In this document: positions 1 through 64,000 of the stretch, piece by piece | Position numbering within the stretch: position 1 is the first letter of the stretch | Layout of the letters: every line of letters begins with the position of its first letter | Source: Eledone cirrhosa | Taxonomy: Eukaryota | Direction: 5' to 3' | NCBI GenBank assembly: GCA_964016885.1 | Contig: OZ024740.1 | Coordinates: forward strand, 320,230,001-320,294,000 | DNA length: 64,000 nucleotides | Translations under genes and position numbers: made by a program | The notes under the pieces: generated by a model | Seen by the model: the letters and a program-made list of their open reading frames with translations, nothing else | Told to the model about the DNA's origin: nothing | Databases searched by the model: none

Positions 1-1253
1 AAATCCACGTCCCCGCCCGGACCCTCGCCTCCCCCGAACAATCGGGCAAAGTGCCTTTGAAAGGCCTCGCATATCTGCTTAGGCTCCCGGATCACCCGTC
101 CATCTTCGTCTTGCAACGACCGGATGGTGGATCGATTTCCACTCTTAGCTTCTGTCACGCGGGCCCAGCCAACGGCTTTGGCCCCCTCATTACCTAGAGC
201 ACGTATTTTACTTCGAATGACGCAGCCTTCGTGCTTTGCATCGAAAAACTGGTTCAAGGCCGTCCTCGATGCCAGCACTTTGGCCACATCTTCGCTCTTG
301 ATTGCCTCTTCTAATTTACCTGTTAATTCTTTCTCGTTTCTATTCCTATCGGCAGCTAACATCTTGCTATAACTTATTGATTCTGTTTTAATCTCTCTTT
401 TGAGAGATGCCCACCATCGGTTGTTGACGATTGCACCCGTCAACCTCTCCTTAACTAATCTGCTAATCCGGTTTCTGTAAGTCTCTTTTGCCGGTAAAGA
501 CAAATTAAGTTTCCAGTAACCGGGACCCTGTTTATGTGTTTTCTCGAGATTGACTACGCAGGTCACTAATTTGTGATCCGTGTAGCCAATCGTGCGCATT
601 TCTGGACAGCTTAATATGTCCCTATCCTTACTTCTAACTAAGAATCTATCTAAGTACGATCTAGATTGACCACTGTGGTTTCTCCAAGTCCAGGTAGGCA
701 CAGTTGGAAAATCTAGTCGATATCTATCGACCAAGTTAAAACGGTCAAGTAACCCCTTGAGGCTGTTACACCCCCCTCTATTAGGACATGCTCCTGCATA
801 GTCCCAACGTGCATCTAGGATGTCATTCCAATCCCCCGCTAGAAGCAGGGAACGCGACGTTCCCAGAAAAGTCTCTAAACGCTGGAAGAAGTCGGGCCGT
901 TCAGCTCCGAAAGGGGAGTAGACGGCGACCAGTCTTAAGGCCGCACCTTCACTACTATCAACGTCTAGCACCAACAAACGACCCTCCGGGTCCGAGTGCA
1001 CAACCTGTACGGCAAGACCCAGGTGTTTTTGCAGCAGTACGACAACCCCACCCCCACCTCCAGGTTGACAGAGAGATGCATGCACCTCAAAGTCATCGAA
1101 GGTAGGGGCCAGCTGCCGCACGACGCTGATCCGAGTCTCACAGATAACCATTACATTTATACCACATGACCTGAGGTCATTTAGAAGCTTTGCTTGCTTC
1201 CAAGTTGAGCCCAGGCCACGTGCATTTAAACATCCTACTCTTAACACATCCAT
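1..1253 (-). CDS. Tx1 ORF2 N-terminal part (apurinic-like endonuclease), partial
   Basis: Manual translation from ATG at 1253: MDVLRVGCLNARGLGSTWKQ...VICETR...LLLAGDWN; homologous to 12024..14624; probably absent from the ORF track because it runs off the window edge. Confidence 0.85.
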   Translation of the reverse strand, partial: MDVLRVGCLNARGLGSTWKQAKLLNDLRSCGINVMVICETRISVVRQLAPTFDDFEVHASLCQPGGGGGVVVLLQKHLGLAVQVVHSDPEGRLLVLDVDSSEGAALRLVAVYSPFGAERPDFFQRLETFLGTSRSLLLAGDWNDILDARWDYAGACPNRGGCNSLKGLLDRFNLVDRYRLDFPTVPTWTWRNHSGQSRSYLDRFLVRSKDRDILSCPEMRTIGYTDHKLVTCVVNLEKTHKQGPGYWKLNLSLPAKETYRNRISRLVKERLTGAIVNNRWWASLKREIKTESISYSKMLAADRNRNEKELTGKLEEAIKSEDVAKVLASRTALNQFFDAKHEGCVIRSKIRALGNEGAKAVGWARVTEAKSGNRSTIRSLQDEDGRVIREPKQICEAFQRHFARLFGGGEGPGGDVD

Positions 1254-1286
1254 GTGGGCGGCAGAGCCAAAGGAGAGTGTAGAGAC

Positions 1287-3180
1287 CTACCTTTCCGCTT
1301 CCCGGGGTTCGGGTCGCACGACTTTCATGGTGTCGGGGGTGTTGGGTGAAGGGGTGTCTTGTGGTGGTGTGGGGTCGTCAGTGTGTGGTGGGGTTGGGGT
1401 GTTTGGAGTTGTGTTGGGGAGGGGAAGGGGGGGGGGGCTTTTTAGTAGGACGCGGTTTATGGGTTTGACAGAGGGTGGTCCTACGTCCTCCTTAAAATCC
1501 TTTTTTAGTTTTTGGTAGAGGTTCATTGGGATCTTTATTAATTTTAAATGTGGGTAGTTTTCTGAAGAAACAAAGTTTACCCCTTCGGTTTGTACCGAAG
1601 GATTATTGTATATGAGTTCAAATAATTTATTATTGTTTCTGTTGATGTAAGAATAGTGTAATGTCTTTTTTTCGGATGGTGTGAGTGTTTCGAAGAGGGG
1701 AGGGGCAGGTTTGGTTTTGTTTGTTGCTGGAGGGGTGTTTTCTGTTTTGTTGGATTGTGTTGAGATTTGGGTGGGGGTTGTTTGGCCTTGTGTGTTTTGC
1801 ACATGTTTTCTTTTTTTCCTTTTAATCTGTCTGAAGGACTCCGTTTCTTCCTCCGAATTCGTTGGGTTATCTTCAGTGTTGGGGGGAAGAGGTATGTTTG
1901 CTGGTAATGTTTCCGTGTTGGTTTTCTTTGTGGGGGAGATGGATGTCACTATGTTAGACTGTGTTGTGTGTTGTGTCTGCGGTGGTTGTGTTGTCTTATT
2001 GAGTGAGGGGTTGGGTGGGCCTGTATTTTGTTTTGGGGTAATGTGTTGTGACTGTTTGTGTTGTGGTGGTGGTGTAGTTTTACTGAGGGACGGGTTGGGT
2101 GGGACTGAGTTTTGTTGTTTGTTTATCTGTTGTGGTGGTGGAGCTGGTGTTGGTAGCAGGGTTTTCTTTTTGTTGAGTTGGGGACAAGCGGCCTTCAGGT
2201 GCCCTCTACCTGCACAGATATGACAGGACGGCCTTCTCCCCTCCACGCTAATGTTTATATACCCGTGGCCCTCTAATAGGATTCTGTCGGGTATTTGGGC
2301 GATGCGTTCAGGCTTCATTTGCACTACCAGCTCTATTCCTGTTCCACTGAACGCATTTCCTGTGGTTTTCCCAATGGAAATCACGTTGTCATTCACTGGA
2401 TCGATGAAGCCAGCTATGAACCAGCAGTAGTCCACATCTGGCATCATTGCATTCAGCCATATTCGTTGAGTTCTTTTACCCATATAAAATGGATAAAAGG
2501 TAAAATTTTTCGAACGAATCGGTGACAAAGCACATTTTTTTGCCGCCGATTCGTTCTTCATGATAATTGCTAGGCTTCCATACAGTCTGTCTTTTCTTAT
2601 GAAAGTGGTTTCATTAAGTACTTCTGTGAGTACTGTTTTGATATCTGCTTAAGAAGGCTGTTCAGGTTTTTTTGAAGTGTTGTTGATTGTGCGGAACACG
2701 ACCGTTCGACTTTCAATGTCTTTGGTGAGTTCTTGAGGCATTTTTACCGATAAAATACCATTCTCTCCTTCACTTATGTATTGTTTGGCGTCTGTGATTC
2801 TTCGTGCCACATCTGAAATATTTTCGGGTACATATGTCAAAGATTTCTTTGTTGTTTGTGCAAATGAAATCTTGACTCTGTCGTCTGCTTTGCTTTCTGT
2901 TATGGTGTTATTTTCAAATGTTATTTTTGTGTTTGTTGTGTCTTTGTTTGTGGTGTTAGTATTGTCATGCAATTTTTCAAATTTGTTTTTTTCGTTGTTG
3001 GAATCCATGTCCAGATTTGTGTTTTCGTCATTTTTCTCCGCAGATTCGTCTGTTTTTATTTTAATTTTTCCTTCCTTCTCTATGACGTTAGTTGGGAAGG
3101 AAGGGGGGGACTAAAGCGTGCGAGCTTACAACTCTTACCGCTGTCCCCCCACCACTATTTTCGTTCGCTTCGTTCAACAT
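1287..3180 (-). pseudogene. Tx1 ORF1 (gag-like zinc-knuckle protein), disrupted
   Basis: Pieces 3088..3180, 2649..3008 and 1287..2561 align to ORF1 of copies C/E; frameshift near the G run at ~3105; in-frame TAA at 2649 where copy E has Gln; CHICAGRGHLKAAC knuckle. Confidence 0.85.
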
Positions 3181-3405
3181 TTCTGTCAGACGATTGAAAT
3201 TTTTTGCCACAAAATTTTTTAAAACAAGTTTTTCACCTCTAGGAGGGGTAAAGATGAGCTGACCCACCGTCTGACAGTTCAGACGGGGGGTCAAGCTACA
3301 CAATGGTATCAAAATTAAATTTGAACTCACAAAATTTCCGTAATAAATTTGAACAAAACTTCTGCGCGAAGTGAATTACATCCACACTGTAGAACAGACG
3401 ACAGC

Positions 3406-3418
3406 TAGATTAGCTAGC

Positions 3419-3478
<60 letters not shown>

Positions 3479-3479
3479 C

Positions 3480-3512
<33 letters not shown>

Positions 3513-3513
3513 T

Positions 3514-3584
<71 letters not shown>
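3406..3584. repeat. (GATA)n microsatellite between Tx1 copies A and B
   Basis: Direct reading. Confidence 0.98.
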
Positions 3585-4473
3585 TCTTTCTTTATTTGCC
3601 ACAGGACGTACAAAAATGGGACATTACAAGACGTGACGGCGAGGCTTTTACATAAAAAAATCATATAACTTTAACATTAATAAATAACAATAAATTATAT
3701 ACTGTATAAAATGACAATTGAAATCCCCAATAGGGGGAACGTTACTGCAGGGTTGTTTTACACCCCGTGGATAGAACAACCCTCAACACCAGGAACACGT
3801 TTTTTAGGTGTTCCTGTCTTCCCTCTGTTTATCTTCCTCAACCTACAGGTTTATATACAGAGAAGGCACATTCACTCGGGCCATTTTCGCCACATTCACC
3901 CACCTTTCAGCGAATTTACTGGGGTGTAGCACCTCTCTCTCCACTCTCACCTTCCTTCTGAAGTGATACTTAAAGAAGGGGATAAGTTGTTGCGCGGAGA
4001 GAAAGATGTTTGCCCTCAGTCCTTTTAACCTCGTCCACCATATTACCTCTTTCGCCATAGCCACCAGACAGAGGAAAACCGCCTCCATTCATTCTTAAAT
4101 GAAGGCTGCGGGGTGACCCTCACGATGGACTCGGCTGACAACTGGATGCACCCCACACGTGACAGTAGCTGTTCGACATAATTCCACAGGTCGGTCACCC
4201 CTGGGCACTGAACAATTGCGTGTAGAACGGTTTCGATGTCCTGCTCGCATATTGGACAGGTCTTTTTGGCAGGATCTCTGCCAGGGCGTCCTTGCCTGTA
4301 GATTTGTCTCGAACTGGTAGAGCTCCTCGGTAGCACTGCTAGGTCAGAGACCTCTGGAAGTTATCCATAGGCCCTGGACGGAAAGTCCTCCCGAACAGAC
4401 TGGTCAGTTCGTCCTCCTCGATGCCTAGAGTTTCCCCGAGAACGTCGTCGCACTTATCCTTCACTAATCCCCT
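3585..4473 (-). mobile_element. 5'-truncated Tx1 copy B (ORF2 C-terminal Cys/His region plus 3' UTR), decayed
   Basis: CPICEQDIETVLHAIVQC and AMAKEVIWWTRLKG match the ORF2 C-terminus of C/E; AATAAA just before (TATC)n. Confidence 0.92.
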
Positions 4474-4491
4474 AGGTACGTAGGTAGGTAA

Positions 4492-4550
<59 letters not shown>
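4474..4550. repeat. (GGTA/GATA)n microsatellite between copies B and C
   Basis: Direct reading. Confidence 0.97.
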
Positions 4551-4789
4551 TGTTTCTTTATTAGCCACAGGGGCACAAAAGAAGGGGACAAATACAAAGG
4601 AGGAAGTTTACATACAATAAAAACGTGTAAAATATTATCACAAATGTAATTTAAAAAGTTAGTCGATTTTCCCCAATAGGGGGAGACAGTTTATATGGGT
4701 AACACATACCCCCGAAAAAATGTGCAACCCTCATCTCCAGGGGTACGAAGAGTTTGTACTCCTTTCCTCTCCTCCTCCTTTTCCTCAAC

Positions 4790-7700
4790 CTACAGGCTGA
4801 TATAGAGAGAAGGCCCATTCACTCGGGCCATTCTCGCCACTTTCACCCACCTTTCATAAAACTTGCTGGGGTACAGTACCTCTCTCTCCATCCTGATTCT
4901 TCTTCCAAAGTGGTATTTGAAAAAAAGAATCAGTTGTTGGCCGGAGAGAAAGGTGTCTGACCTCAGCCCTTTCAACCTTGTCCACCATACAACCTCTTTC
5001 GCCATAGCTATCAGGAAAACCGCCTCTCCTTCGTTTTTGAAGGAGGGTGGCGGTTTGATCATGACAATGGACTCGGTGGTCAACCGGATTGGTCCCACCC
5101 GCGACAATATTCGTTCTACATAGCCCCACAGGTCAGTGACGCTCGGGCACTGTATGAATGCGTGCGCGACGGTTTCTTCGTCTCGCACGCACCTCGGACA
5201 GATCTTTTTTGCAGGGTCCCTGCCCGGGCGCCCATGTCTGTAGAGCTTGTCACGAACTGGTAGAGCTCCCCGGTAGCACTGCCAGGCCAGGGACTTTTGG
5301 AAGTTGTCCATCGATCCCGGGCGGAAGGTCCTACCGAACAGACTGGCCAGTTCATCTTCCTCTACGCCTAGAGTTTCACCGAGCGCGTCGTCGCACTTGC
5401 TGCGGATCAACCCTCTATAGAATGACGAAGTGGAGTCTCCACTGATCGCCGGGTCTGCCTGCCAGAGGGCTGTGAGCGCCTGAGCACATTAGATGTGCCA
5501 GTAGTCCATTTTCCTCGGTCTTTGCTTGACCCAGGACTGCAGCTCGGTCAGCGAGACGAGTCGTGGGAAGGCTCGCCTCACGAACGGGGCCCACACCGGT
5601 TGTCCGGTGAGGAATACGTAGAGATGCCGCAGCCTGAGCGCGTGTTTGCGCATCGTCAACCACGGCATCCCCAGCCCTCCGTTAGAAGGGTGTTGGCAGT
5701 AGATGGATCTTCTCACCAAAGGAGCCCGCCTCTTCCAAAGGAATCGGAAGAGCGCGCGTTCCATTTTGGCGACCGTTTGGGCTGGACAAGGCATGACGGT
5801 CAAGCGGTAGTAGATGGCGGACGCTATGAAAGTGTTCGCCACCTCCGCTCGACCTTTCAAGGTGAGTGCAAACACCTTGGCCGTCACTTCGTTCTAGTTC
5901 TTCTCCACCTGGAGGTCCGAACCAAACCAGACCCCGAGCAGCTTTACCGGTCCTTCCGTCCAGCGTCCGACGACGCCATCGGAAGGCATCGGTTTGCCTC
6001 TCCACGATCCGAGTTGCAAACCGATGGACTTGTCTCGGTTCAGCTTCGCTCCTGTGAAACTTTCGTATTCCTTCAGTAAGGTGCCGACTTCCTCGATTTG
6101 CGAGGCGCTCGACACCATTACTGTCACGTCGTCGGCGTAGGCCGACGTCGCTTTCCGCAGTCCCGGTTCCAGAGGGATGCCCTGCAATAGCTCCAGCTTC
6201 CGCAGTAGTGGCTCGAGAGTCAGTACGTACAGAAGGGAGGAGAGAGGGCATCCCTGTCGAATGGATCGCGTAATATGGAACGGCTCCGAGAGGTAGCCGT
6301 TCACCTTGACCCTTGAGCAGATGTTGCTGTTGTGCATTGCAGCAATCCAGCCCTTGAACACGGGTCCGAAGCCTGCCGCCTCGAGCACCGCATCCAGGTA
6401 ACGATGGTCAACCCTATCGAAAGCCTTAGACTGATCCAATTTGATCAGAGCCCCACCGAAGGCTCTCTATGATGTATCACATGAGGTGGAGGTTGTCGTG
6501 TATGGACCTGGTCGGGATTGCGCATGTCTGCGCTTCTCCCACCAGGTTCTCGACGACAAGCGCCAGCCTCTTTGCTAACACCTTGGCCAAAATCTGTAAC
6601 TCTGTGTTTAGCAGAGTTATGGGCCGGAAGTTGCCTATGTCATCCCCCTTATTCTCGTCCTTCCTGATTAGTGTGACCACGCCCCCGGTTACAGAACTGG
6701 GAATTCTCCCGTTCTGTTGCCAGTTGCAGTAGACCGCTTCCAGGAGACCGGAGAATAAGTCCGGCATTGCTACGTAAAATTCGTAGGGTAGACCGTCGAG
6801 ACCTGGAGATTTGCGTTTGCCGCATTGGCTCAGCGCGTCCCCTATCTCAGTGGCTGAAATCGGCTTTTCGCAGAACTTTGCCTCGCTGTCCGAGAGTCGC
6901 GGTAGGCCGTCGAGTTATGGACCGAAATCCATAGTCCCCCCCCCCCCCGAACAGCTGAGCAAAGTACCGCTGAAAAGCCGCACACATCTGCTTCGGCTCA
7001 CGTATCACGCGTCCGTTTTGGTCCTTCAAAGACCGAATCGTGGACTTGTTGCCACTTTTTGCCTCCGTCACTCGGGCCCAGCTAACAGCTTTGGCTCCCT
7101 CGTTTCCCAGAGCACGTATTTTGCTTCTGACAACGCAGCCCTCGTGCTTTGCGTCAAAGAACTGATCCAAGGCCGTTCTCGTTGTTAGCACGCTGGCTAC
7201 GTTTCCACTTCTAATTGCCTCTTCTACTTTATCTACCAGTTCCTTCTCGTTTCTATTTCTATCTAACGCTAATTCTTTACTAAAAACTATCGAGTCTAAT
7301 CTAACTGCCCTCTTGAGAGAGTACCACCATCTGTTGTTGACAATGGCCCCTGTCAAATGCTGTTTAACTAAAGTGCTAATCCGTCTACTGTAGCTTTGCT
7401 TGTCGGTAACGACAAGTTCAGCTTCCAGTAGCCGGGTCCTTGTCTATGGGTTCTATCAAGGTTGGCCATGCAGGTCACTAGTTTGTGATCTGAATAGGCA
7501 ACCATGAACATTTGTGGACAGCTTAACATGTCCCTATCCTTATTTCTAACTAGAACCCTATCTAGGTACGATCTAGATGTTCCGCTACGATTACTCCACG
7601 TCCACAGTGGCGCAGTCGGAAAATCTAGTCGATATCTATCGGCCAGGTCAAATCGGTCGATTAACTGTTTGAGGCTGTTACACCCCCCTTTATCGGGACA

Positions 7701-8165
7701 TGCTCCCACATAGTCCCAACGTGCATCTAGGATTCCATTCCAGTCCCCCACTAAAAGCAAGGAGCGGGACGTTCCCAGAAAAGTCTCTAGACGTTTGAAG
7801 AAGTCTGGCCGCGGTGTCCCGGATGGGGCATATGCGGCCACCAGCCTGAAGACTCCACCTTCACTACCGTCAACGTCTAGGACCACCAGTCGACCCTCCG
7901 GGTCCAGATGTACCGTCTGTGTTACGAGGCCCAGGTGTTTCCGCAGCAAAACGGCAACCCCACCCCCACCTCCCGGTTGACAGAGAGATGCGTAGATCTC
8001 AAAGTCATCGAAGATGGAGGCCAGCTGTCGCTCGCTGTGGATCCTGGACTCGCAAATGGCTACCACATCCATACTGTGCGACCTGAGGTCGTTTAAGAGT
8101 TTGTCCTGTTTCCAGGGCATCCCCAGGCCGCGTACGTTCACACATCCAACTCTTATATTGGCCAT
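4790..8165 (-). pseudogene. Tx1 ORF2 (endonuclease + reverse transcriptase), several frameshifts and stops
   Basis: Fragments 7368..8165 (CVNVRGL, VGDWN, YLDR, SDH), 6847..7356, 6477..6767 (FRPITLLN), 5894..6439 (KAFDRVDH, QGCPLS, YADD), 5489..5887, 4790..5410 (CPRC..H..C). Confidence 0.95.
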
Positions 8166-8198
8166 GTTGGTGCTGAAAAGTTAAAAGAGGAAAAGAGA

Positions 8199-10102
8199 TC
8201 ACTCACCCTTCGTCTCCTGGGGACCAGGCCGCACGATTTCCATGGGGGTGTTGGAGGGGTTGTCTGGATGGGTGGTGGTTTCCGGCGGGGTGGGGACGGA
8301 GATGTTTGGTGGGGTGGGGTCTGGTGGGATGGGGGTGTCTGGGGTGGGGAGACATTTGAGAAGGACGCGGTTGAGTGGTTTCACGCAGGAATTACCCACA
8401 TCCTTCTCAAATGTTTCTTTTAGGGACCTATAAGTTTGTATAGGGACCCTAATCAGTTTTAGGTTCAGTTTTTTGCTATTTTTAATAGAGTGGGCGAAAG
8501 TTTTCCCTTCGGTTTTCACCGAAGGGTCGTTCGTGATGGTCTCCATTAGTGTTTTGTTTTCAGTGTTTATGTAAGTGTAAGTGTAATTTTCTTGTGTTGT
8601 GTTTGTTTTTGTCTGTAGTTCTTGTGTGTGCTTTCGTTTTGTTGTAGGTATTTTGTTTTCAGGAGGTGGGGGTTTTGTTTGTGATGTTTTTGTTGTTTGT
8701 GTTGGTGGTTGTATGTTTGTGGTAGTGTTTGCTGGTTTTTTGCTTTTGTGATGTCTTTTCTTTCTTTTCGAGCGATGGGGTTCTCCCTCGTCTTCACTGG
8801 GTGATGGCGAGATAGCCTCATCTGTTGTATCGTCTGTGTGATTGGGGAGGGGTATGTCTTGGGGAGCTGTTGTGTCTGTATGTGATTTTGCAGTGGTTTT
8901 AGGTGGAGTGGGTTTGGGTGGGACTGTGTTTGTTGTGGTTATTTTTGTGTGTTGGTGTTGTTGTTGTTGTGGTGGTGTTGGTGGTTGTGTTGTTTTGATG
9001 GGTGTCGGCAGAAGAGCCTTTTTTTTATTCATTAATTTAGGACAGGAAGCCCTCAGGTGACCCCTGCTAAAGCAATGGTAACATGAAGGCCGCCTACCCT
9101 CAACCGAAAAGTTTATGTAGGTGAGTCCGTCCAGGAGTACACGTTGTGGGACCATAGCTATTCGCTCTAGGCTCATTTGCACCAGAACTTCAATGCTAGT
9201 CCCATTGAATACATCTCTGGGGGACTTTCCTACTGACAGTATTCTGTCTTCATCAAAATTGATGAAGCCGCACAGTATCCACCATATGTTCAGCTTTGGT
9301 GTGACACTCGTGATTCTGATCTTTTGTGTCCTTTTTCCCATGTATGTAGGGAAAAAGGTGTACAGGTTGGATACAATTGGCGACACAGAGTAATTTTGGG
9401 CCGTCAATTGATCCTTCATAAGAACCGAAATACTCCCAAAAAGTTTGCTTCTTTGAATGAATGCAATATCATTCATTGAATTTTTGAAAACCAGTTCGAT
9501 TTCTTTCTGTGACAATTGGACTGGTTTTCGGGTAGAATTGGAAACTGTCCTAAAAACTATCGTTTTGAGAGCAGTTTCCTTGCGAATTTCTACCGGAGAA
9601 TTGATGCTGAAAGCACCATTTTTTTCGAAAGTGACATATCTCCTAGCGTCCTTTAAAAGTTGTTCAGCATTTGTTATGTCGAGATATATCAATTCCTCCT
9701 TTTTTTTAACTTTCTCTGCAAAGGAGATTTTGGTTTCTTTGTGGAATCCGTGTTGTTGATGTTGTCATTATTGTTGTTATTCTTGTTGTCACCGATGTTG
9801 GTATTATTCGTATTTTCCTTGGTGTTGTTGTTGTCTTTGATGCTGGTGTTATTGGTGTTGTCTTTATTTTTTTCTTTGTTGTTGTTATCATTGTTGCTTT
9901 TATCATCATTATTGGTGTTGCTGTTATTTTTGTTGTCATTGAATTGTTTGGTGTCATTTGTGTTGTTTGGATATGAATTCGTTTTTACATTTTCATTTCG
10001 TCTTTCCATCTCTATAGTATCTAATGAAGAAGACGTTGATGACTGCGAGCTTTGTAGTCTTACCGCCTCTCCACCACCATTATCGTTGGACGCAGCGTTC
10101 AT
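8199..10102 (-). pseudogene. Tx1 ORF1 of copy C, one frameshift after the Asn-rich N-terminus
   Basis: ORFs 9689..10102 and 8199..9692 together align to the 597-aa ORF1 of copy E; CYHCFSRGHLRASC knuckle; Pro/Thr-rich linker. Confidence 0.88.
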
Positions 10103-10332
10103 AACGTAATCAAAATTTTACAATATTTTTTCAAAGATTCGATGGAGAAAACATTTTTCAAATGGATATTCCGCTCCTGTGGGGGTGAAAATGAGTTGAC
10201 CCACCACCTGAAGGTCCAGACGGGGGGTCAAGTTACACAATGATATAAAATGTAACTAAAAACTCACGTTTCTTTCTTACATAAATTAACGGAAACTTCT
10301 CCGCGAAGTTACACACGTCTGATAGATAGATA

Positions 10333-10830
10333 TATTTCTTTATTAGCCACAGGGGCACAAAAGAAGGGGACAAATACAAAGGGGGAAGTTTACATACAAT
10401 AAAAACGTGTAAAATGTTATCACAGATGGAATTTAAAAGTTAGTCGATTTTCCCCAATAGAGGGAGACAGTTTATATGGGTAACACAGACCCCCGAAAAA
10501 AATGTGCAACCCTCATCTCCAGGAGTACGAAGAGCTTGTACTCCTTTCCTCTCCTCCTCCTTTTCCTCAACCTACAGGCTGATATAGAGAGAAGGCCCAT
10601 TCTCGGGCCATTCTCGCCACTTTCACCCACCTTTCATAAAACTTGCTGGGGTACAGCACCTCTCTCTCCATCCTGATTCTTCTTCCAAAGTGGTATTTGA
10701 AAAAAAGAATCAGTTGTTGGCCGGAGAGAAAGGTGTCTGACCTCAGCCCTTTCAACCTTGTCCACCATACAACCTCTTTCGCCATAGCTATCACACAAAG
10801 GAAAACCGCCTCTCCTTCGTTTTTGAAGGA
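10333..10830 (-). mobile_element. 5'-truncated Tx1 copy D, same family as copy C
   Basis: Near-identical to 4551..5045; flanked by short GATA (10321..10332) and (GATA)n (10831..10897). Confidence 0.93.

Positions 10831-10897
<67 letters not shown>
10831..10897. repeat. (GATA)n microsatellite between copies D and E
   Basis: Direct reading. Confidence 0.98.
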
Positions 10898-11161
10898 TGT
10901 TTCTTTTATTTGCCACTAGGGCATCAAAAGTGGGACAAGTACAAAGGGGGGAGTTTACACAAAAAGGCGTCCTCAATAAGGAGGAGGCAATAACAAAATA
11001 TAAAAATAAAATAAGATATAACAAAAAATAAAATTTATAACAAAATCCTCAATAGAGAGGCAGCGCCTTGGGGGGTCGCACACACCCCCGAAAAAAGTGT
11101 GCAACCCTTCTCCTCAGGAGCACAGAGAAGGGGTGCTCCCTTGGTCTTTCATCTTCCTCAC

Positions 11162-14100
11162 CTATAGTCTGATGTAGAGTGAAGGCCCATTCACACGGGC
11201 CATTCTCGCCACTTTCACCCATCTTTCATAGAAACGGCTGGGGTGCAGCACCTCTCTCTCCATCCTGATCCTTCTTCCGAAATGATATCGGAAGAAACGG
11301 ACCAGTTGTTGGCCAGAGAGAAAGGTGCCTGACCTCAGTCCTTTCAGACGCGTCCACCATACAACCTCTTTCGCCATGGCTATTACGCACAGAAACACCG
11401 CCTCTGCTTCATCTTTGAAGGGGGGAGGCGGCTTGATCATTACAATAGACTCGGTGGTCAACCGGATCGGTCCCACCCTTGACAGCAGTTGTTCGACATA
11501 GCCCCACAGATCGGCTACGCCCGAGCAGTGTACCAATGCGTGTGCAACGGTTTCCTCGTCGCACACGCATCTGGGACAGATCTTTTTGGCGGGGTCCCTA
11601 CCCGGGCGCCCGTGTCTGTAGAGCCTTTCTCGAACGGGTAAAGCCCCTCGGTAGCACTGCCAGGCCAGGGACTTCTGGAAGTTGTCCATAGGTCCCGGGC
11701 TGAACGTCCTACCGAACAGGCTGGCCAGTTCGTCCTCCTCCATGTCTAGGGCTTCTCCGAGGGCGTCGTCGCACCTGCTGCGTACCAGCCCTCTATAGAA
11801 TGTTGCGGTGGAGTCTCCACTGATAACCGGATCCGCCTGCCAGAGGGCGGTGAGCGCCTGGGCACACTCAGTGTGCCAGGTGCCCAGTTTTCTCGGTCTT
11901 TGCTTGACCCAGGATTGCAGCTCGGTGAGTGAGACGAGTCTAGGAAAGGTTCGTCTCACAAACGAGGCCCACACCGGTTGTCCGGTGAGGAATACGTAGA
12001 GGTGCCGTAGCCTTAATGCGTGTTTACGCATCATTAGCCACGGCATCCCCAGCCCTCCTTTCGAAGGGTGTTGACAGCAGATGGATCTCCTCACCATAGG
12101 AGCCCGCCTCTTCCAAAGGAATTGGAAGAGCGCGCGCTCCATCTTGGTGAGGGTTTCCCTTGGGCAGGGCACTACGGTCAGGCGGTAGTAGGTAGACGGA
12201 CGCTATGTAGGTGTTCGCCACCTCCGCCCGACCTTTCAGGGATAGTTTGCAACTGGCCCACTTCTGGGTCAGTGCAAACACCCTGTTCGTAACCTCCGCC
12301 CAGTTTTTCTCCACCTGGAGGTCCGGTCCGAACCAGACCCCGAGCAACTTCACCGGGCCCTCCGTCCAGCGTCCGACGACGCCATCGGAGGGCATCGGTC
12401 TGCCCCTCCACGTGCCGAGTTGCAAACCGATCGACTTGTCCCGGTTCAGCTTAGCCCCTGTGAACTTTTCGTACTCCTCCAGTAAGGTGCCGACCGCCTC
12501 GATTTCGGAGGCCGTCGACACCATTACTGTCACGTCATCGGCGTAGGCCGACACCGCTTTCCGCAATCCCGGTTCCAAAGGGATGCCCTGCAACAACTCC
12601 AACTTCCGCAGTAGTGGTTCGAGAGTCAACACATACAGAAGGGAGGAGAGAGGGCACCCTTGTCGGATGGACCGCGCGATTTTGAACGGCTCCGAGAGGT
12701 AGCCGTTCACCTTGACCCTAGAGCAGATGCGGCTGCTGTGCATAGCAGTGATCCAGCCCCTGAAAACGGGTCCGAAGCCTGCCGCCGCTAGCACCGCATC
12801 CAGGTAACCATGGTCGACCCTATCGAACGCCTTAGATTGATCCAAGTTGATCAGAGCCCCACCAAAGCCGGGTTCGTTCCCAACCCTCTCTATGATGTAT
12901 CGCATGAGGTGGAGGTTGTCATGGATGGACCTGGACGGGATAGCGCATGTCTGCGCATCTCCCACCAGGTTGCCCACGACAAGCGCCAACCTCTTTGCTA
13001 GCACCTTGGCCAAAATCTGTAACTCTGTATTTAGCAGAGTTATGGGCCTGAAGTTACTTATTTCGTCCCCCTTGTTCTCGTCCTTCCTCACTAGCGTGAC
13101 TACGCCCTTGGTCACAGTACAGGGAATTCTCCCGTTCTGTTGCCAGTTGCAGTAGACCGCCTCGAGGAGATCGGGGAACAAGTCCGGCATAGCTAGATAT
13201 AATTCGTAAGGAAGACCATCGAGACCCGGGGATTTGCGTTTGCCGCATTGGCTCAGCACGTCCTCTATCTCAGCGGCCGAAATCGGCTCCTCGCAGGACT
13301 TCGCCTCCCTGTCCGAGAGGCGCGGCAGGCCGTCGAGGTATGGACCGAAGTCCACGTTCCCAACCGGCTCCCCGCCCCTCCCGAACAGTCGGGCAAAGTG
13401 CCTTTGAAAGGCCTCACACATCTGCTTAGGCTCAAGAATCGCCCGTCCATCCAGGTCTCGCAAAGACCGGATGGTGGATTTAGTTCCACTGTTGGCCTCT
13501 GTCACGCGGGCCCAGCTAACAGCTTTGGTCCCCTCGTTCCCTAGAGCACGTATTTTACTTCGGACAACGCAGCCTTCGTGCTTCGCGTCGAAAAACTGGC
13601 TCAAAGCCGTTCTCGACGCTAGCACTCTGGCCACGTCGCCGCTTCTAATTGCCTCTTCTACTCTATCTATTAGCTCCCTTTCCTTCCTATTCCTATCCGC
13701 AGCTCGAACCTTACTAAATTCTATCGAGACTACTCTAATCTCTCTCTTTAGAGATACCCACCACCTGCTGTTGACGATCGCTCCAGTCAACCGTTCCTTA
13801 ACTAACGTACTAATCCGATTCCTGTAGGCTCTACTTGCCGGCAAGGACAAGTTGAGCTTCCAGTAACCGGGGCCCTGTCTATGAGTTCTGTCAAGGTTGA
13901 CCATGCAGGTCACTAATTTGTGGTCTGAATAGCCAACCATGCGCATTTTTGGACAACTTAAAAAGTCCTTATCCTTAATTCTAACTAAGAACCTATCTAG
14001 GTACGACCTAGATGATCCGCTACGATTTGCCCAAGTCCAGGTTGGCGCAGTCGGAAAATCTAGTCGATATCTATCGGCCAGGTCAAATCGACCGATTAAC

Positions 14101-14600
14101 CCTTTGAGGCTATTACACCCCTCTCTATCGGGGCAGGCCCCTACGTAGTCCCAGCGTGCATCTAGGATACCATTCCAGTCCCCCACTAATAGCAAGGAGC
14201 GGGACGTCCCTAGAAAAGTCTCCAGACGATGGAAGAAGTCCGGCCGCATTGACCCGAAAGGGCCGTAGGCGGCTACCAACCTAAACGCTCCGCCTTTACC
14301 ACTGCCAAGGTCCAGAACCACTAGTCGACCCTCCGGGTCCAAATGTACCATCTGTGTTGCGAGACCCAGATGTTTTTGCAGCAGAACGACAACTCCACCC
14401 CCACCTCCGGGCTGACAGAGAGATGCGTGCATCTCAAAGTCATCAAAGGTGGGGGCCAGCTGTCGCACGTTGCTGATCCGGGCCTCGCAAATAACCATCA
14501 CATCTATACGTTGTGACCTGAGGTCATTTAGAAGCATTGCTTGCTTCCAAGTTGAGCCCAGGCCACGCACATTTAAACAGCCTACTCTTAGCATAGCCAT
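11162..14600 (-). CDS. Tx1 ORF2 (APE endonuclease, RT, C-terminal Cys/His finger), 1-nt frameshift near 12191
   Basis: ORF track 12024..14624 and 11162..12172; likely start ATG at 14600 in context CACCAACATGG; motifs CLNVRGL, GDWN, SDH, KSPGLDG, YADD, CPRC..H..C. Confidence 0.93.
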
Positions 14601-14624
14601 GTTGGTGGTGAAGAGAAAAGGCAC

Positions 14625-16418
14625 TTACCTCTCTGCGTCCCGGGTATCGGGCTGCACAATTTCCATTAGGGTGGGGGATGGGTTGTTGGTTGGGGTGGTG
14701 GTTTGTGGAAGTGTGGGGGCATCAGTGTGTTGTGTGGTTGGGGAGCTTGGAGTTGTGTGGGTGTTTGGGGAGGGGGTGGGATAGTTTTTTAGGAGGACGC
14801 GGTTAATGGGCCCGACGCAGGAGGGACCCACGTCCTCTTTAAAATTGTTTTTTAAAGTTTTATAGGTGTCCTGTGGGGCCTTAATCATTTTGAGGTGGGG
14901 GAAATCCCCTGCCTGGGTGAAGTTAGGCCCTTGTGTTTTTATTAGATTGTTGTTGTACACAATGTTTAACAGTTTTTTGTTTCTTGTGTTTATGTATGTG
15001 TATGCATGTTTTTGTTTTTGTGTGGTGTTTTTTGTTTGCTGTTGTTGTGAGCTCTTTTGTGTTAGTGTCAGTGTTATGTTTTGGGGAGGGTTTTTTTTCA
15101 TTTGTGTGTCTGAGGTGTGTTTTCTTTTTTTTCTTTTGATTGTGTGGAAGTGCTCCTCCTCGTCTGACGACGAACTAGGGTCATCTTCCGCGTTGGAGGG
15201 GAGGGGTATATTTTCGGGTTGTGTTTGCGGTACGGGTGTTTTGGAAATTGTTTTTGTTTTTTGAGTGGAGGGGATGGGTTGGACATTGTTTTGTTTTGGT
15301 TTGAGCTGTGGTGGTTGTTTTTGTAGTGGTAGTTGTGGTGATTGTGTTGGTTGTGCAGTTGTTGGTGGTGTAGGAAGGATTGGGGTTTTCTTATTAAGTT
15401 GGGGACAGACAGCCCTCAGGTGACCTCTGGTTCCGCAGAGGTAACACGAGGGCCATCTACCCTCAACGGTAATGTTGATGAAGGTTAGATCATCCAGTAT
15501 GACGCGTTCAGGGATCTGGGCGATCCTTTCGGGCCTCATTTGAACTACAAGTTCGAGGCTCGTTCCACTGAACGCGTCACCCGATGCCTTTCCCATGGAC
15601 ACCAGCATGTCATCCTCCAGGTCCAGAAAACCTGTCAAAACCCACCATATGTCCATAATCGGCAGGATGGTGTGGATTTTTATTTTTTGTGTTCTTCTAC
15701 CCATGTACGTAGGGTAGAAGGTGTATGCGGTGGATGTGATTGGTTTGATGGACAGTTTCACTGCTGTGTCCCTGTCCTTCATGAGAATGGATAGACTCCC
15801 GTAGAGTCTATCCTTCTGAATGAAGGTGATGTCCTTCATGACGTCTTTTAAAACCAGCTCTATCTCGCTCTGTGATGGTTGAGCTGGTTTTTTACTTTTG
15901 TTCGAGATTGTCCTAAACATGACCGTGTTTAGGAGTCTCTGGCTTTTTAGTTCCGGGGGGGAATGGATTGTGAATGAACCATTTTCCCCGTACACTATAT
16001 ATTTTTTCGCATCCGTCAGTAGCTCCTTCGCTTTTGTTATATCTACTGGCAGATAGTCGAGGGTTTTCCTTGTCGTCTCAGCGAAGGAGAAATTTTGTTT
16101 GTTTGTGTTGTTGTTGTCGTTGGTGGTGTTGTTGTTATCATTGTTGTTGTTGTCACCGTTATTGGTCTTGTTGTTGTTGTTATTGTTATTGTTATTGGTG
16201 TTGTTTTCGTCCGTCGCATTGTTGTTGTTGTTGCTGTTGCTGCTGGTTCTTTGGGTTGTTGCCATGGCAACGTCAAGTTGTCGGTTAACAGGTGGAGAGA
16301 ATTCTTCCTCTGGCTGACCTTTCTTCTTGACCTCTGCTACTGTGACAGTGGCAGGGGGAAGCTTTAAGTTCATCTTCCCCTTTCCTCCTTCGAATTTTGG
16401 TGAAGAAGCTTCGGCCAT
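14625..16418 (-). CDS. Tx1 ORF1 protein, 597 aa, zinc knuckle
   Basis: Uninterrupted ORF; poly-Asn N-terminus, CYLCGTRGHLRAVC knuckle, basic KRKKRK patch shared with copies A and C. Confidence 0.93.
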   Translation of the reverse strand: MAEASSPKFEGGKGKMNLKLPPATVTVAEVKKKGQPEEEFSPPVNRQLDVAMATTQRTSSNSNNNNNATDENNTNNNNNNNNNKTNNGDNNNNDNNNTTNDNNNTNKQNFSFAETTRKTLDYLPVDITKAKELLTDAKKYIVYGENGSFTIHSPPELKSQRLLNTVMFRTISNKSKKPAQPSQSEIELVLKDVMKDITFIQKDRLYGSLSILMKDRDTAVKLSIKPITSTAYTFYPTYMGRRTQKIKIHTILPIMDIWWVLTGFLDLEDDMLVSMGKASGDAFSGTSLELVVQMRPERIAQIPERVILDDLTFINITVEGRWPSCYLCGTRGHLRAVCPQLNKKTPILPTPPTTAQPTQSPQLPLQKQPPQLKPKQNNVQPIPSTQKTKTISKTPVPQTQPENIPLPSNAEDDPSSSSDEEEHFHTIKRKKRKHTSDTQMKKNPPQNITLTLTQKSSQQQQTKNTTQKQKHAYTYINTRNKKLLNIVYNNNLIKTQGPNFTQAGDFPHLKMIKAPQDTYKTLKNNFKEDVGPSCVGPINRVLLKNYPTPSPNTHTTPSSPTTQHTDAPTLPQTTTPTNNPSPTLMEIVQPDTRDAER

Positions 16419-16638
16419 TTAAAAAAAAATATTGATTTTTCAACAAGAAAAAACTTTTTTTTTTTTGTTTAACTATTTCGCCTAAAGGCGTAGAATATTT
16501 TGAGAGACTGACCAGATCAAAGTTTGACCTGGCAGTCCCTCTACAAAATGGTACAAAAATTAAAGTTATCAGACAAGAATTTCTATAGAAATTTAAACAG
16601 AACTTACTCAGCAAGTTATACGCGTGTGTCCATCCCAG

Positions 16639-16639
<1 letters not shown>

Positions 16640-16711
<72 letters not shown>
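16640..16711. repeat. (GATA)n microsatellite 5' of the Tx1 array
   Basis: Direct reading. Confidence 0.98.
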
Positions 16712-45231: not shown

Positions 45232-45501
45232 TTTTTATTTTTATTTTTATTTTTATTTTTATTTTTATTTTTATTTTTATTTTTATTTTTATTTTTATTT
45301 TTATTTTTATTTTTATTTTTATTTTTATTTTTATTTTTATTTTTATTTTTATTTTTATTTTTATTTTTATTTTTATTTTTATTTTTATTTTTATTTTTAT
45401 TTTTATTTTTATTTTTATTTTTATTTTTATTTTTATTTTTATTTTTATTTTTATTTTTATTTTTATTTTTATTTTTATTTTTATTTTTATTTTTATTTTT
45501 A

Positions 45502-45532
<31 letters not shown>

Positions 45533-45843
45533 TTTATTTTTATTTTTATTTTTATTTTTATTTTTATTTTTATTTTTATTTTTATTTTTATTTTTATTTT
45601 TATTTTTATTTTTATTTTTATTTTTATTTTTATTTTTATTTTTATTTTTATTTTTATTTTTATTTTTATTTTTATTTTTATTTTTATTTTTATTTTTATT
45701 TTTATTTTTATTTTTATTTTTATTTTTATTTTTATTTTTATTTTTATTTTTATTTTTATTTTTATTTTTATTTTTATTTTTATTTTTATTTTTATTTTTA
45801 TTTTTATTTTTATTTTTATTTTTATTTTTATTTTTATTTTTAT
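45232..45843. repeat. (TTTTTA)n hexamer array, ~610 bp
   Basis: Direct reading; one phase slip near 45525. Confidence 0.98.
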
Positions 45844-63149: not shown

Positions 63150-64000
63150 CGTCGAGAATCCAAAGTAGTTTACAAACCAGCTTCGAGGGTTGTTCAATAG
63201 GCCCGGGTGACGGAAGCACAACGCAGCAACAAAGCCGTAATTCGATTTCTGATGGCCCGCGGAGGGAGTGTACAATCTGACTCTAAGCCGATGTCTGTAA
63301 TTTTCCAGCAGCACTTTTGCTGAACTTCTTGCGAGAAGTGGCGGATTGGAGGCGAGAGACATCAATTCCTACCATAACAGCCTGTCGCGACTCTCAACTT
63401 GGGAGGTAGTGTTACAAAAAAACGTTCTCAGCAGATGAATTGGCAGAGGTGCAGAGTTAGTATGTGAGGGACACCGCCAGGGTTGGGTGGTCTACCTTAT
63501 ATGTTATACTTCAACAAGCCAGACTTGTTTGCTACGGTCTCAGCATCCCCAGTCGTGTAAGCCGTTAAGAAAGGACCTGATAGAAAACTACTGAACATAA
63601 GACAGAAGGTTTTTGCAATGGTATTTGCCAAGAGGTTCGCACTTGTCATAAGTTGTGTAGCCGGAGATGCGCACACCTGTGCGATTCCTGACAGATCTAT
63701 TCATGACATTCTCTACCTTATAACATACATCGTAGAACGGTTTGGAATTAGATCCGACTTTGGTGAAGTCTGGTCAATTTAGATCTGTTCAAAGCTACTT
63801 GGTGACTGTCCTAAGAGCAGCTGGTTTCGGTTCCGTTTTCAGATGCTGGAACTCTACATTCAGCGGCATTTGTTTAGTGATCAAACTAAATAGTCTCTTA
63901 TCAGAACCCCCCCCCCCCCCCCCCCCCATCCGTAGCATACATTCAATCCAACAGGAATGTCCCTTATCTCCCTCCTCCGTATGTTGGCTTTGGAACCTTT
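63150..64000 (+). pseudogene. Old, heavily decayed Tx1-type RT fragment
   Basis: GLPY..PDLF, LLN..FAKRFALV..GDAHTCAIPDRSIHD, AAGFGSVF, QECPLS; related to ORF2 of the array. Confidence 0.8.

What the first reader, a model, noticed from the sequence alone, without database searches (positions are those of the whole stretch)
1..16711. Five Tx1 insertions from several diverged families stacked in one (GATA)n microsatellite: apparent GATA-repeat target specificity
Seen: copies A-E are co-oriented, never interrupt each other, and are each separated by GATA repeats. The four 3' junctions join (TATC)n in the same phase, and a GATA tract also lies 5' of the outermost copy, so the repeat is not only an element-made tail. 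ORF1s and UTRs are strongly diverged while ORF2 is conserved. Established: Tx1-clade endonucleases can be sequence-specific (Kibi for TC repeats, Koshi for TTC repeats). Inference: a lineage specialised on (GATA)n, a target I cannot assign to a named family.
Basis: partly seen in the sequence, partly recalled or inferred. Interest (0 to 1): 0.75.

Follow-up and report, generated by a model that had tools for sequence, protein, structure and literature searches.

The report
Octopod LINEs choosing GATA microsatellite targets
Five copies of a jumping gene, likely from an octopus, lie head to tail in one GATA repeat, as copies elsewhere in this genome sit at the same step of that repeat, likely because their DNA-cutting enzyme reads the motif there; a close sister family sits in GACA repeats instead, which would allow a simple test of how such genes change target.

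Summary
Confirmed and extended. Five co-oriented L1/Tx1-group LINE copies from four families lie between (GATA)n tracts, and a sixth lies just left of the window. Elsewhere in the genome, 76 of 87 full-length 5' ends and 44 of 66 5'-truncated copies follow two or more TATC units; the background is 0.24%. Of 41,064 3' ends, 17,104 run into ATCTAT and 1 into the opposite strand. Target-site duplications of about 10-22 bp start at TATCT. Paralogues of one host repeat show the empty site, with no added tail. So the repeat is mostly a target, not a tail. The likely mechanism is an endonuclease nick at CTATCT, possibly helped by pairing with the RNA 3' end; no nicking was tested. The lineage is not GATA-only. 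A young sister family (88% endonuclease identity), nested among the GATA families, sits in (GACA)n; others use (ATT)n or a ~72-bp satellite. Microsatellite-targeting Tx1 elements are known (Kibi, Koshi). I found no GATA target in nine paper searches, but Repbase could not be checked. This scan has already reported the same families many times, in this genome and in others.

The parts
1..3405 (-). Copy A, 5' part of a full-length LINE (5,807 bp with the neighbouring stretch). ORF1 3110-1287 has one in-frame stop; ORF2 starts at 1253 and has one frameshift near residue 650, left of the window.
3406..3584 (.). (GATA)n tract between A's 5' end and B's 3' end. Its variant end (TATC units followed by AGCT units) recurs at A's 3' junction, like a target-site duplication; read by eye.
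3585..4473 (-). Copy B, 5'-truncated and frameshifted; an older family (best relatives 94% identical).
4474..4550 (.). Degenerate (GGTA)n then (GATA)n tract between B and C.
4551..10320 (-). Copy C, full length and decayed: ORF2 8165-4799 has three frame changes and four stops; ORF1 carries a CCHC knuckle.
10321..10332 (.). Three GATA units between C's 5' end and D's 3' end.
10333..10830 (-). Copy D, a 498-bp 5'-truncated member of the C family (96% to C).
10831..10897 (.). (GATA)n tract between D and E.
10898..16638 (-). Copy E, full length and young (99% to relatives). ORF1 16418-14625 is open (597 aa, CCHC knuckle). ORF2 14600-11168 (APE endonuclease, RT, zf-RVT) has one frameshift near 12190-12159. 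No poly(A) tail.
16639..16711 (.). Outermost (GATA)n tract, 5' of E; sequence unrelated to the elements follows.

Best explanation
These are L1/Tx1-group LINE retrotransposons that sit in one orientation and one phase at TATCT, mostly inside (GATA)n microsatellites, likely because their APE endonuclease nicks the GATA strand at 5'-AGATA/G-3' and the freed end primes reverse transcription of the element RNA. Shown: orientation, phase, 5' truncation, duplications of about 10-22 bp starting at TATCT, one empty site, no poly(A), and intact young copies. Inferred: the nick and its position; that the RNA end (AAUAAA motif, two bases, then likely UAUCU from the element end or read-through) pairs with the primer and fixes the phase; and that each insertion leaves TATC on both sides, so later families re-use the tract and build stacks without cutting older copies. 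Also inferred: the (GACA)n family arose from a GATA-targeting ancestor, with R193N at the tip of the betaB6-betaB5 loop as one candidate among nine family-specific endonuclease changes.
For: 5' flanks of full-length copies with two or more TATC units in the last 25 bp: E 28 of 30, A 21 of 30, C 30 of 30; 46 of 54 where no other element ends within 250 bp upstream. 5'-truncated copies, which cannot carry an element-made 5' repeat: E 11 of 18 and C 17 of 21, B 16 of 27. Background is 0.24%. Strand polarity is 17,104 versus 1 among 41,064 3' ends. Duplications start at TATCT. Where the target's left side is not itself TATC, the base before is C in 8 of 9 cases, although the element has A or T there; the background is 13%. 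Most of the 19 paralogues of the repeat hit in L045 run straight through the site, and the closest has one copy of the stretch that is duplicated around the insertion. Catalytic motifs align with L1 ORF2p. The loop is a known contributor to nicking profiles, and Tx1L endonuclease nicks almost only its target (PMC1950540 passages). 8 of 20 fetched E copies keep both ORFs open.
Against: No nicking or transposition was assayed. 22 of 66 truncated copies lack two TATC units upstream. Several B copies (L116, L118, L120, L124, L126) have no duplication and no upstream TATC, yet still end in ATATCTAT, two of them in 38 and 97 bp of repeat; so part of the 3' repeat can come from the element, or target DNA was deleted. 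3' tracts were longer than 5' tracts in 52 of 84 copies and shorter in 29 (Wilcoxon p=0.09). Sampled loci are the top-scoring 30 of 40 scored hits per search, which favours young copies. The 8-of-9 count was read by eye from 25 informative rows. R193 is shared with the ATT and satellite families, so it cannot explain all targets. Loop grafts onto L1 did not transfer specificity in a modular way.
Confidence: 0.78

Rival explanations
1. The endonuclease is loose, and the target is chosen mainly by pairing of the RNA 3' end (UAUC units from the element end or read-through) with nicked DNA. A family's target then perpetuates itself, and a switch to GACA needs only one master copy beside a GACA tract.
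For: There is no poly(A), and every family's 3' end runs straight into its target unit. In L129 the target reads TGTCT but the 3' junction reads TATCT, as if the RNA supplied the A (one case). Some copies have 3' repeat with none at the 5' side. PMC1950540 names RNA-DNA pairing as a possible added contribution.
Against: The C just 5' of the duplication is conserved in 8 of 9 targets, where the element has A or T, so pairing cannot explain it. Targets follow endonuclease clades, each with one target in the rows sampled. Insertions at non-repeat sites add no extra units.
Confidence: 0.14
2. Insertion is near random; the repeats are element-made tails that expand, and the stacks come from passive accumulation or recombination.
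For: Arrays are common: 11 of 30 E, 10 of 30 A and 15 of 30 C 5' ends follow another element's 3' end. Passive accumulation near CA repeats is proposed for Drosophila Waldo-A/B (PMC3812793).
Against: Solitary and truncated copies still have upstream TATC. Duplications are in a fixed phase, and polarity is 17,104 to 1. Neighbours in the stack are 67-80% identical, so they are not duplications of each other. Fragments upstream of C heads differ in length and family.
Confidence: 0.03
3. A host protein that binds GATA repeats, or the repeat's DNA shape, tethers the complex, and the endonuclease only sets the local phase.
For: L1 endonuclease reads DNA structure more than sequence. Long tracts dominate the flanks.
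Against: Insertions also occur at single CTATCT motifs in non-repeat DNA. An 88%-identical sister uses a different repeat.
Confidence: 0.05

Closest known systems
Kibi (TC)n and Koshi (TTC)n of teleosts; crocodilian Tx1 families in (TTCC)n/(TTTC)n
   Same: APE-type L1/Tx1-group LINEs that insert into a microsatellite (PMC4494074 passages and text part 3 of 5; PMC3812793 section 5 part 1). The criterion of more than 20% of flanks used in PMC4494074 is met by all four families.
   Different: The target unit is TATC. The octopod RTs form their own clade, with unnamed relatives, outside the vertebrate Tx1 group, so the habit may be convergent. Several families with different units coexist in one genome.
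Xenopus Tx1 (Tx1L; YTX2_XENLA, P0314)
   Same: Same domain order; 310 bits against the E-family ORF2 and 36% identity over the RT; sequence-specific endonuclease.
   Different: Tx1L targets a DNA transposon. Its betaB6-betaB5 loop is two residues longer in the alignment.
Waldo (ACAY)n, Mino (AC)n, Dong (TAA)n, SART1Bm (TTAGG)n
   Same: Non-LTR elements with simple-repeat targets (PMC3812793 section 5; PMC7265360 abstract).
   Different: They belong to other clades (recalled: R1 and R4). SART1Bm needs three repeat units and a long poly(A), whereas these elements insert at single motifs too and leave no poly(A).
L1-Tx1 families annotated in Octopus vulgaris (PMC13282606)
   Same: 13 recently active L1-Tx1 families with 421 insertions are listed; they may include relatives of these families.
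   Different: No target preference is described in the two of three text parts read. Their library and supplement were not seen.

Membership tests
L1-group APE-type non-LTR retrotransposon | ORF2 with APE endonuclease, RT and C-terminal zinc-binding domain | tested here: met
   Pfam Exo_endo_phos, RVT_1 and zf-RVT; best solved-structure match is L1 ORF2p, E 7.8e-48, ahead of R2
L1-group APE-type non-LTR retrotransposon | Two ORFs, 5' truncation, target-site duplication, no LTRs | tested here: met
Tx1 clade (broad sense) | RT groups with Tx1 rather than L1 | tested here: inconclusive
   310 bits to Xenopus Tx1 versus 166 to human L1. In a quick tree the octopod clade is in a polytomy with vertebrate Tx1 (SH-aLRT 90). 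No mammalian L1, Keno, Mutsu or Dewa sequence was in the tree.
Tx1 clade (broad sense) | ORF1 with a CCHC zinc knuckle (feature recalled, not from a call) | tested here: met
   CX2CX4HX4C in A, C and E
Tx1 clade (broad sense) | Target preference (more than 20% of flanks in one repeat class, PMC4494074) | tested here: met
   59-100% per family
Tx1 clade (broad sense) | Sequence-specific nicking by the isolated endonuclease | not testable with these tools
   needs a biochemical assay
Kibi / Koshi | Target (TC)n or (TTC)n | tested here: not met
   junctions are in TATC phase
Kibi / Koshi | Nests in the teleost/crocodilian microsatellite-targeting group | tested here: not met
   Outside the 7-row vertebrate Tx1 clade (support 100). 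That the Tetraodon row P0340 is a Kibi or Koshi protein is recalled and unverified.
A named Repbase/Dfam GATA-specific family | Sequence match to a database entry | not testable with these tools
   Repbase and Dfam are not held; Fig. 3 and the supplements of PMC4494074 could not be seen

The most novel reading that the evidence does not exclude
An octopod LINE radiation (about 41,000 3' ends) has switched target repeatedly and independently of vertebrate Tx1. A one-base switch from GATA to GACA happened recently between endonucleases 88% identical, and it maps to very few residues, with R193N at the hairpin tip as the lead candidate. This would give a natural code for retargeting APE-type retrotransposons.
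Probability: 0.25. Interest if true: 0.72.

Novelty: new variant of a known kind. Interest (0 to 1): 0.45.

Why it matters
How APE-type LINE endonucleases gain new targets is still open: PMC3812793 calls microsatellite targeting 'not well understood', and loop grafts in PMC1950540 did not transfer specificity. Here young, intact families with 88% identical endonucleases differ by one base in target, which makes the endonuclease-versus-RNA question directly testable. It also means that many GATA tracts in this genome are split and duplicated by LINE insertions, which may matter for microsatellite markers and repeat annotation in octopods.

Tried and rejected
The first B-family junction analysis (4 of 29) used a composite locus as reference. 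I discarded it and repeated it with L134, checked as colinear with E. Laying public contigs on two insertions to find empty alleles gave no joint across either element among the rows shown; repeat flanks were skipped and all runs were contigs. No RNA holder was listed. The protein atlas held neither the ORF2 nor the stored homologue. Kojima and Fujiwara 2004 is not held. I considered D plus C as one 5'-transduced unit and rejected it, because fragments upstream of other C heads vary in length and family. A systematic tail is not supported (median tract 24.5 bp 5' versus 27.5 bp 3') but is not excluded for some copies. The C-terminal tree and the RT tree are quick trees without bootstrap. Family B has no clean endonuclease in my sample and was left out of the endonuclease tree and the residue comparison.

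Full report
Observation. The first 16.7 kb hold five minus-strand LINE copies separated by GATA tracts. A, C and E have intact 5' ends; B and D are 5'-truncated. D is 96% identical to C, so there are four families. Over their 3' parts the families are 68-80% identical. All four 3' junctions read AATAAA(A)GAAA, two bases, then TATCT, with no poly(A). The neighbouring genome stretch shows A's 3' end in the same phase and a sixth copy, F. E has an open 597-aa ORF1 and one frameshift in ORF2; A and C are more decayed.

Host and class. The genome is 3.0 Gb. The closest named protein relative is from Argonauta hians (63-67%), so the host is likely an octopod. ORF2 has APE endonuclease, RT and zf-RVT domains, and ORF1 has one CCHC knuckle. 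ORF2 scores 310 bits against Xenopus Tx1 and 166 against human L1. In a quick RT tree of 39 rows, the octopod sequences form a clade (99) with an unnamed sister group (98). That clade lies outside the vertebrate Tx1 clade (100), in a polytomy with it (90). No mammalian L1 or named Keno, Mutsu or Dewa sequence was available.

Target or tail. I searched the genome with the 5' ends of E, A and C and took the best 30 loci each, of 40 scored among 1,135-1,314 candidates. Two or more TATC units lie in the 25 bp upstream in 28, 21 and 30 of 30. That is 76 of 87 without the window's own copies, and 46 of 54 where no other element ends within 250 bp. Background is 169 of 71,820 windows. Truncated copies are the sharper test, since they cannot carry an element-made 5' repeat. 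From 3'-end searches, 24 of 90 loci were dropped: 22 whose 5' end lay beyond the locus or the reference, and 2 without a proper 3' end. Of the rest, E 11 of 18, C 17 of 21 and B 16 of 27 have upstream TATC. A pattern for the shared 3' end matches 41,064 places, with 0 for the reversed control. Of these, 17,104 run into ATCTAT within three bases and 1 into AGATAG.

Insertion signature. Duplications of 10 bp or more were found in 74 of 91 TATC-family copies with both ends. Most lie in pure repeat and tell little; 25 include non-repeat letters. In 16 of those 25 the match starts two bases after the GAAA motif, at TATCT in 15, and the clear cases run about 10-22 bp. Where the target's left side is not TATC, the preceding base is C in 8 of 9 cases (read by eye; background 13%), while the element has A or T there. 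One copy (L045) lies in an interspersed repeat. Most of its 19 fetched paralogues run straight through the site, the closest has a single copy of the duplicated stretch, and most have TATCA or TATT where the hit copy had TATCT. No repeat units were added there.

Results against. A third of the truncated copies lack two upstream units. Five B copies have neither a duplication nor upstream TATC, yet end in ATATCTAT. 3' tracts are longer than 5' tracts in 52 of 84 copies and shorter in 29 (p=0.09). So the element end supplies at least part of the first unit, and some tails or target deletions are possible.

Beyond GATA. A full-length sister 12-17 kb left of the window has (TGTC)n on both sides. 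In its family G, 21 of 30 3' flanks have two TGTC units and 2 have TATC (one has both), and 8 have neither. All 9 distinct 5' heads seen follow TGTC, several of them in arrays and so not independent. Family H ends in (ATT)n in 27 of 30. Family I sits at one position of a ~72-bp satellite. In the endonuclease tree (27 rows), G lies in a clade with the TATC families E, A and J (100/97), with TATC family C and family I outside and H as the most distant group. The RT tree agrees (99/97). So GACA targeting is likely derived from GATA targeting. G's endonuclease is 88% identical to E's and has nine residues seen in none of 26 TATC-family sequences. One, R193N (H in family A, Y in one sequence), lies in the loop that aligns with the betaB6-betaB5 hairpin of L1 and Tx1L. 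That loop alters nicking profiles, though not in a modular way (PMC1950540 passages). H and I keep R193, so other residues must matter too.

Mechanism. Most likely this is target-primed reverse transcription from a nick at 5'-AGATA/G-3' on the GATA strand. A second nick about 10-22 bp away would make the duplication, and the RNA end may pair with the primer. Each insertion leaves TATC on both sides and never faces the other way, so later families can re-use the tract; hence the stack. The nick, the pairing and the role of residue 193 are inferred, not shown.

Prior knowledge. Microsatellite-targeting Tx1 families are described: Kibi (TC)n, Koshi (TTC)n, and crocodilian (TTCC)n/(TTTC)n (PMC4494074: passages and text part 3 of 5; PMC3812793: passages and section 5 part 1). 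Neither lists GATA or GACA as a target in what I read. PMC4640811 (passages) and PMC3747384 (passages) add none. PMC13282606 (parts 1-2 of 3) counts 13 active L1-Tx1 families in O. vulgaris without targets. Of PMC7265360 I saw the abstract only. Nine searches found no GATA-specific family. Repbase, Dfam, Kojima and Fujiwara 2004, and the figure and supplements of PMC4494074 were not visible and could name one. This scan's own unreviewed notes report the same families at many other loci and in other genomes. I looked at them after reaching my reading; they supplied the lead to PMC3812793 and are not counted as support.

Verdict. The feature is real, and the targeting is well supported by genomic evidence. 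It is a new variant of a known kind: the strategy is known, the targets appear undescribed, and the recent GATA-to-GACA switch is the most useful part. Interest 0.45.

Noticed in passing
L062:2826-8450 (G000:C1, about 12-17 kb left of the window): Full-length sister copy (family G), 87% identical to E at the 3' end, flanked on both sides by (TGTC)n. The family is very young (32 of 40 scored hits 100% identical over 254 bp) and forms tandem arrays.
   Followed up: yes
L067:1625-4984 and L251-L280: Family H, with about 60% endonuclease identity to E, ends in (ATT)n in 27 of 30 loci; 6 of 12 truncated copies have ATT upstream.
   Followed up: partly
L303-L308, L331-L333 (G000:C1:4.23-4.26 Mb): Six copies of family I, spaced about 6-7 kb apart, inserted at one position of a ~72-bp satellite (period counted by eye); also L281 and L287.
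   Followed up: partly
L061:6823-7599 and L061:4361-4460: Sixth copy F and the 3' end of A continue the array left of the window. A separate short A-like 3' fragment with its own GATA tract lies about 2.4 kb further on.
   Followed up: partly
L215: Full-length copy with E-family 5' part and endonuclease but the 3' part of another TATC family (J): a likely recombinant between families.
   Followed up: partly
window 63150-63970: Decayed RT fragment of a related LINE (32-46% to E ORF2), not in a GATA tract.
   Followed up: no
window 45232-45843: About 102 copies of a TTTTTA hexamer, 99% matches.
   Followed up: no
protein clusters P0003, P0004, P0193, P0198: Unnamed ENA proteins, 43-55% identical, form the sister clade of the octopod elements; some clusters have hundreds of members. 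Their targets are unknown.
   Followed up: no
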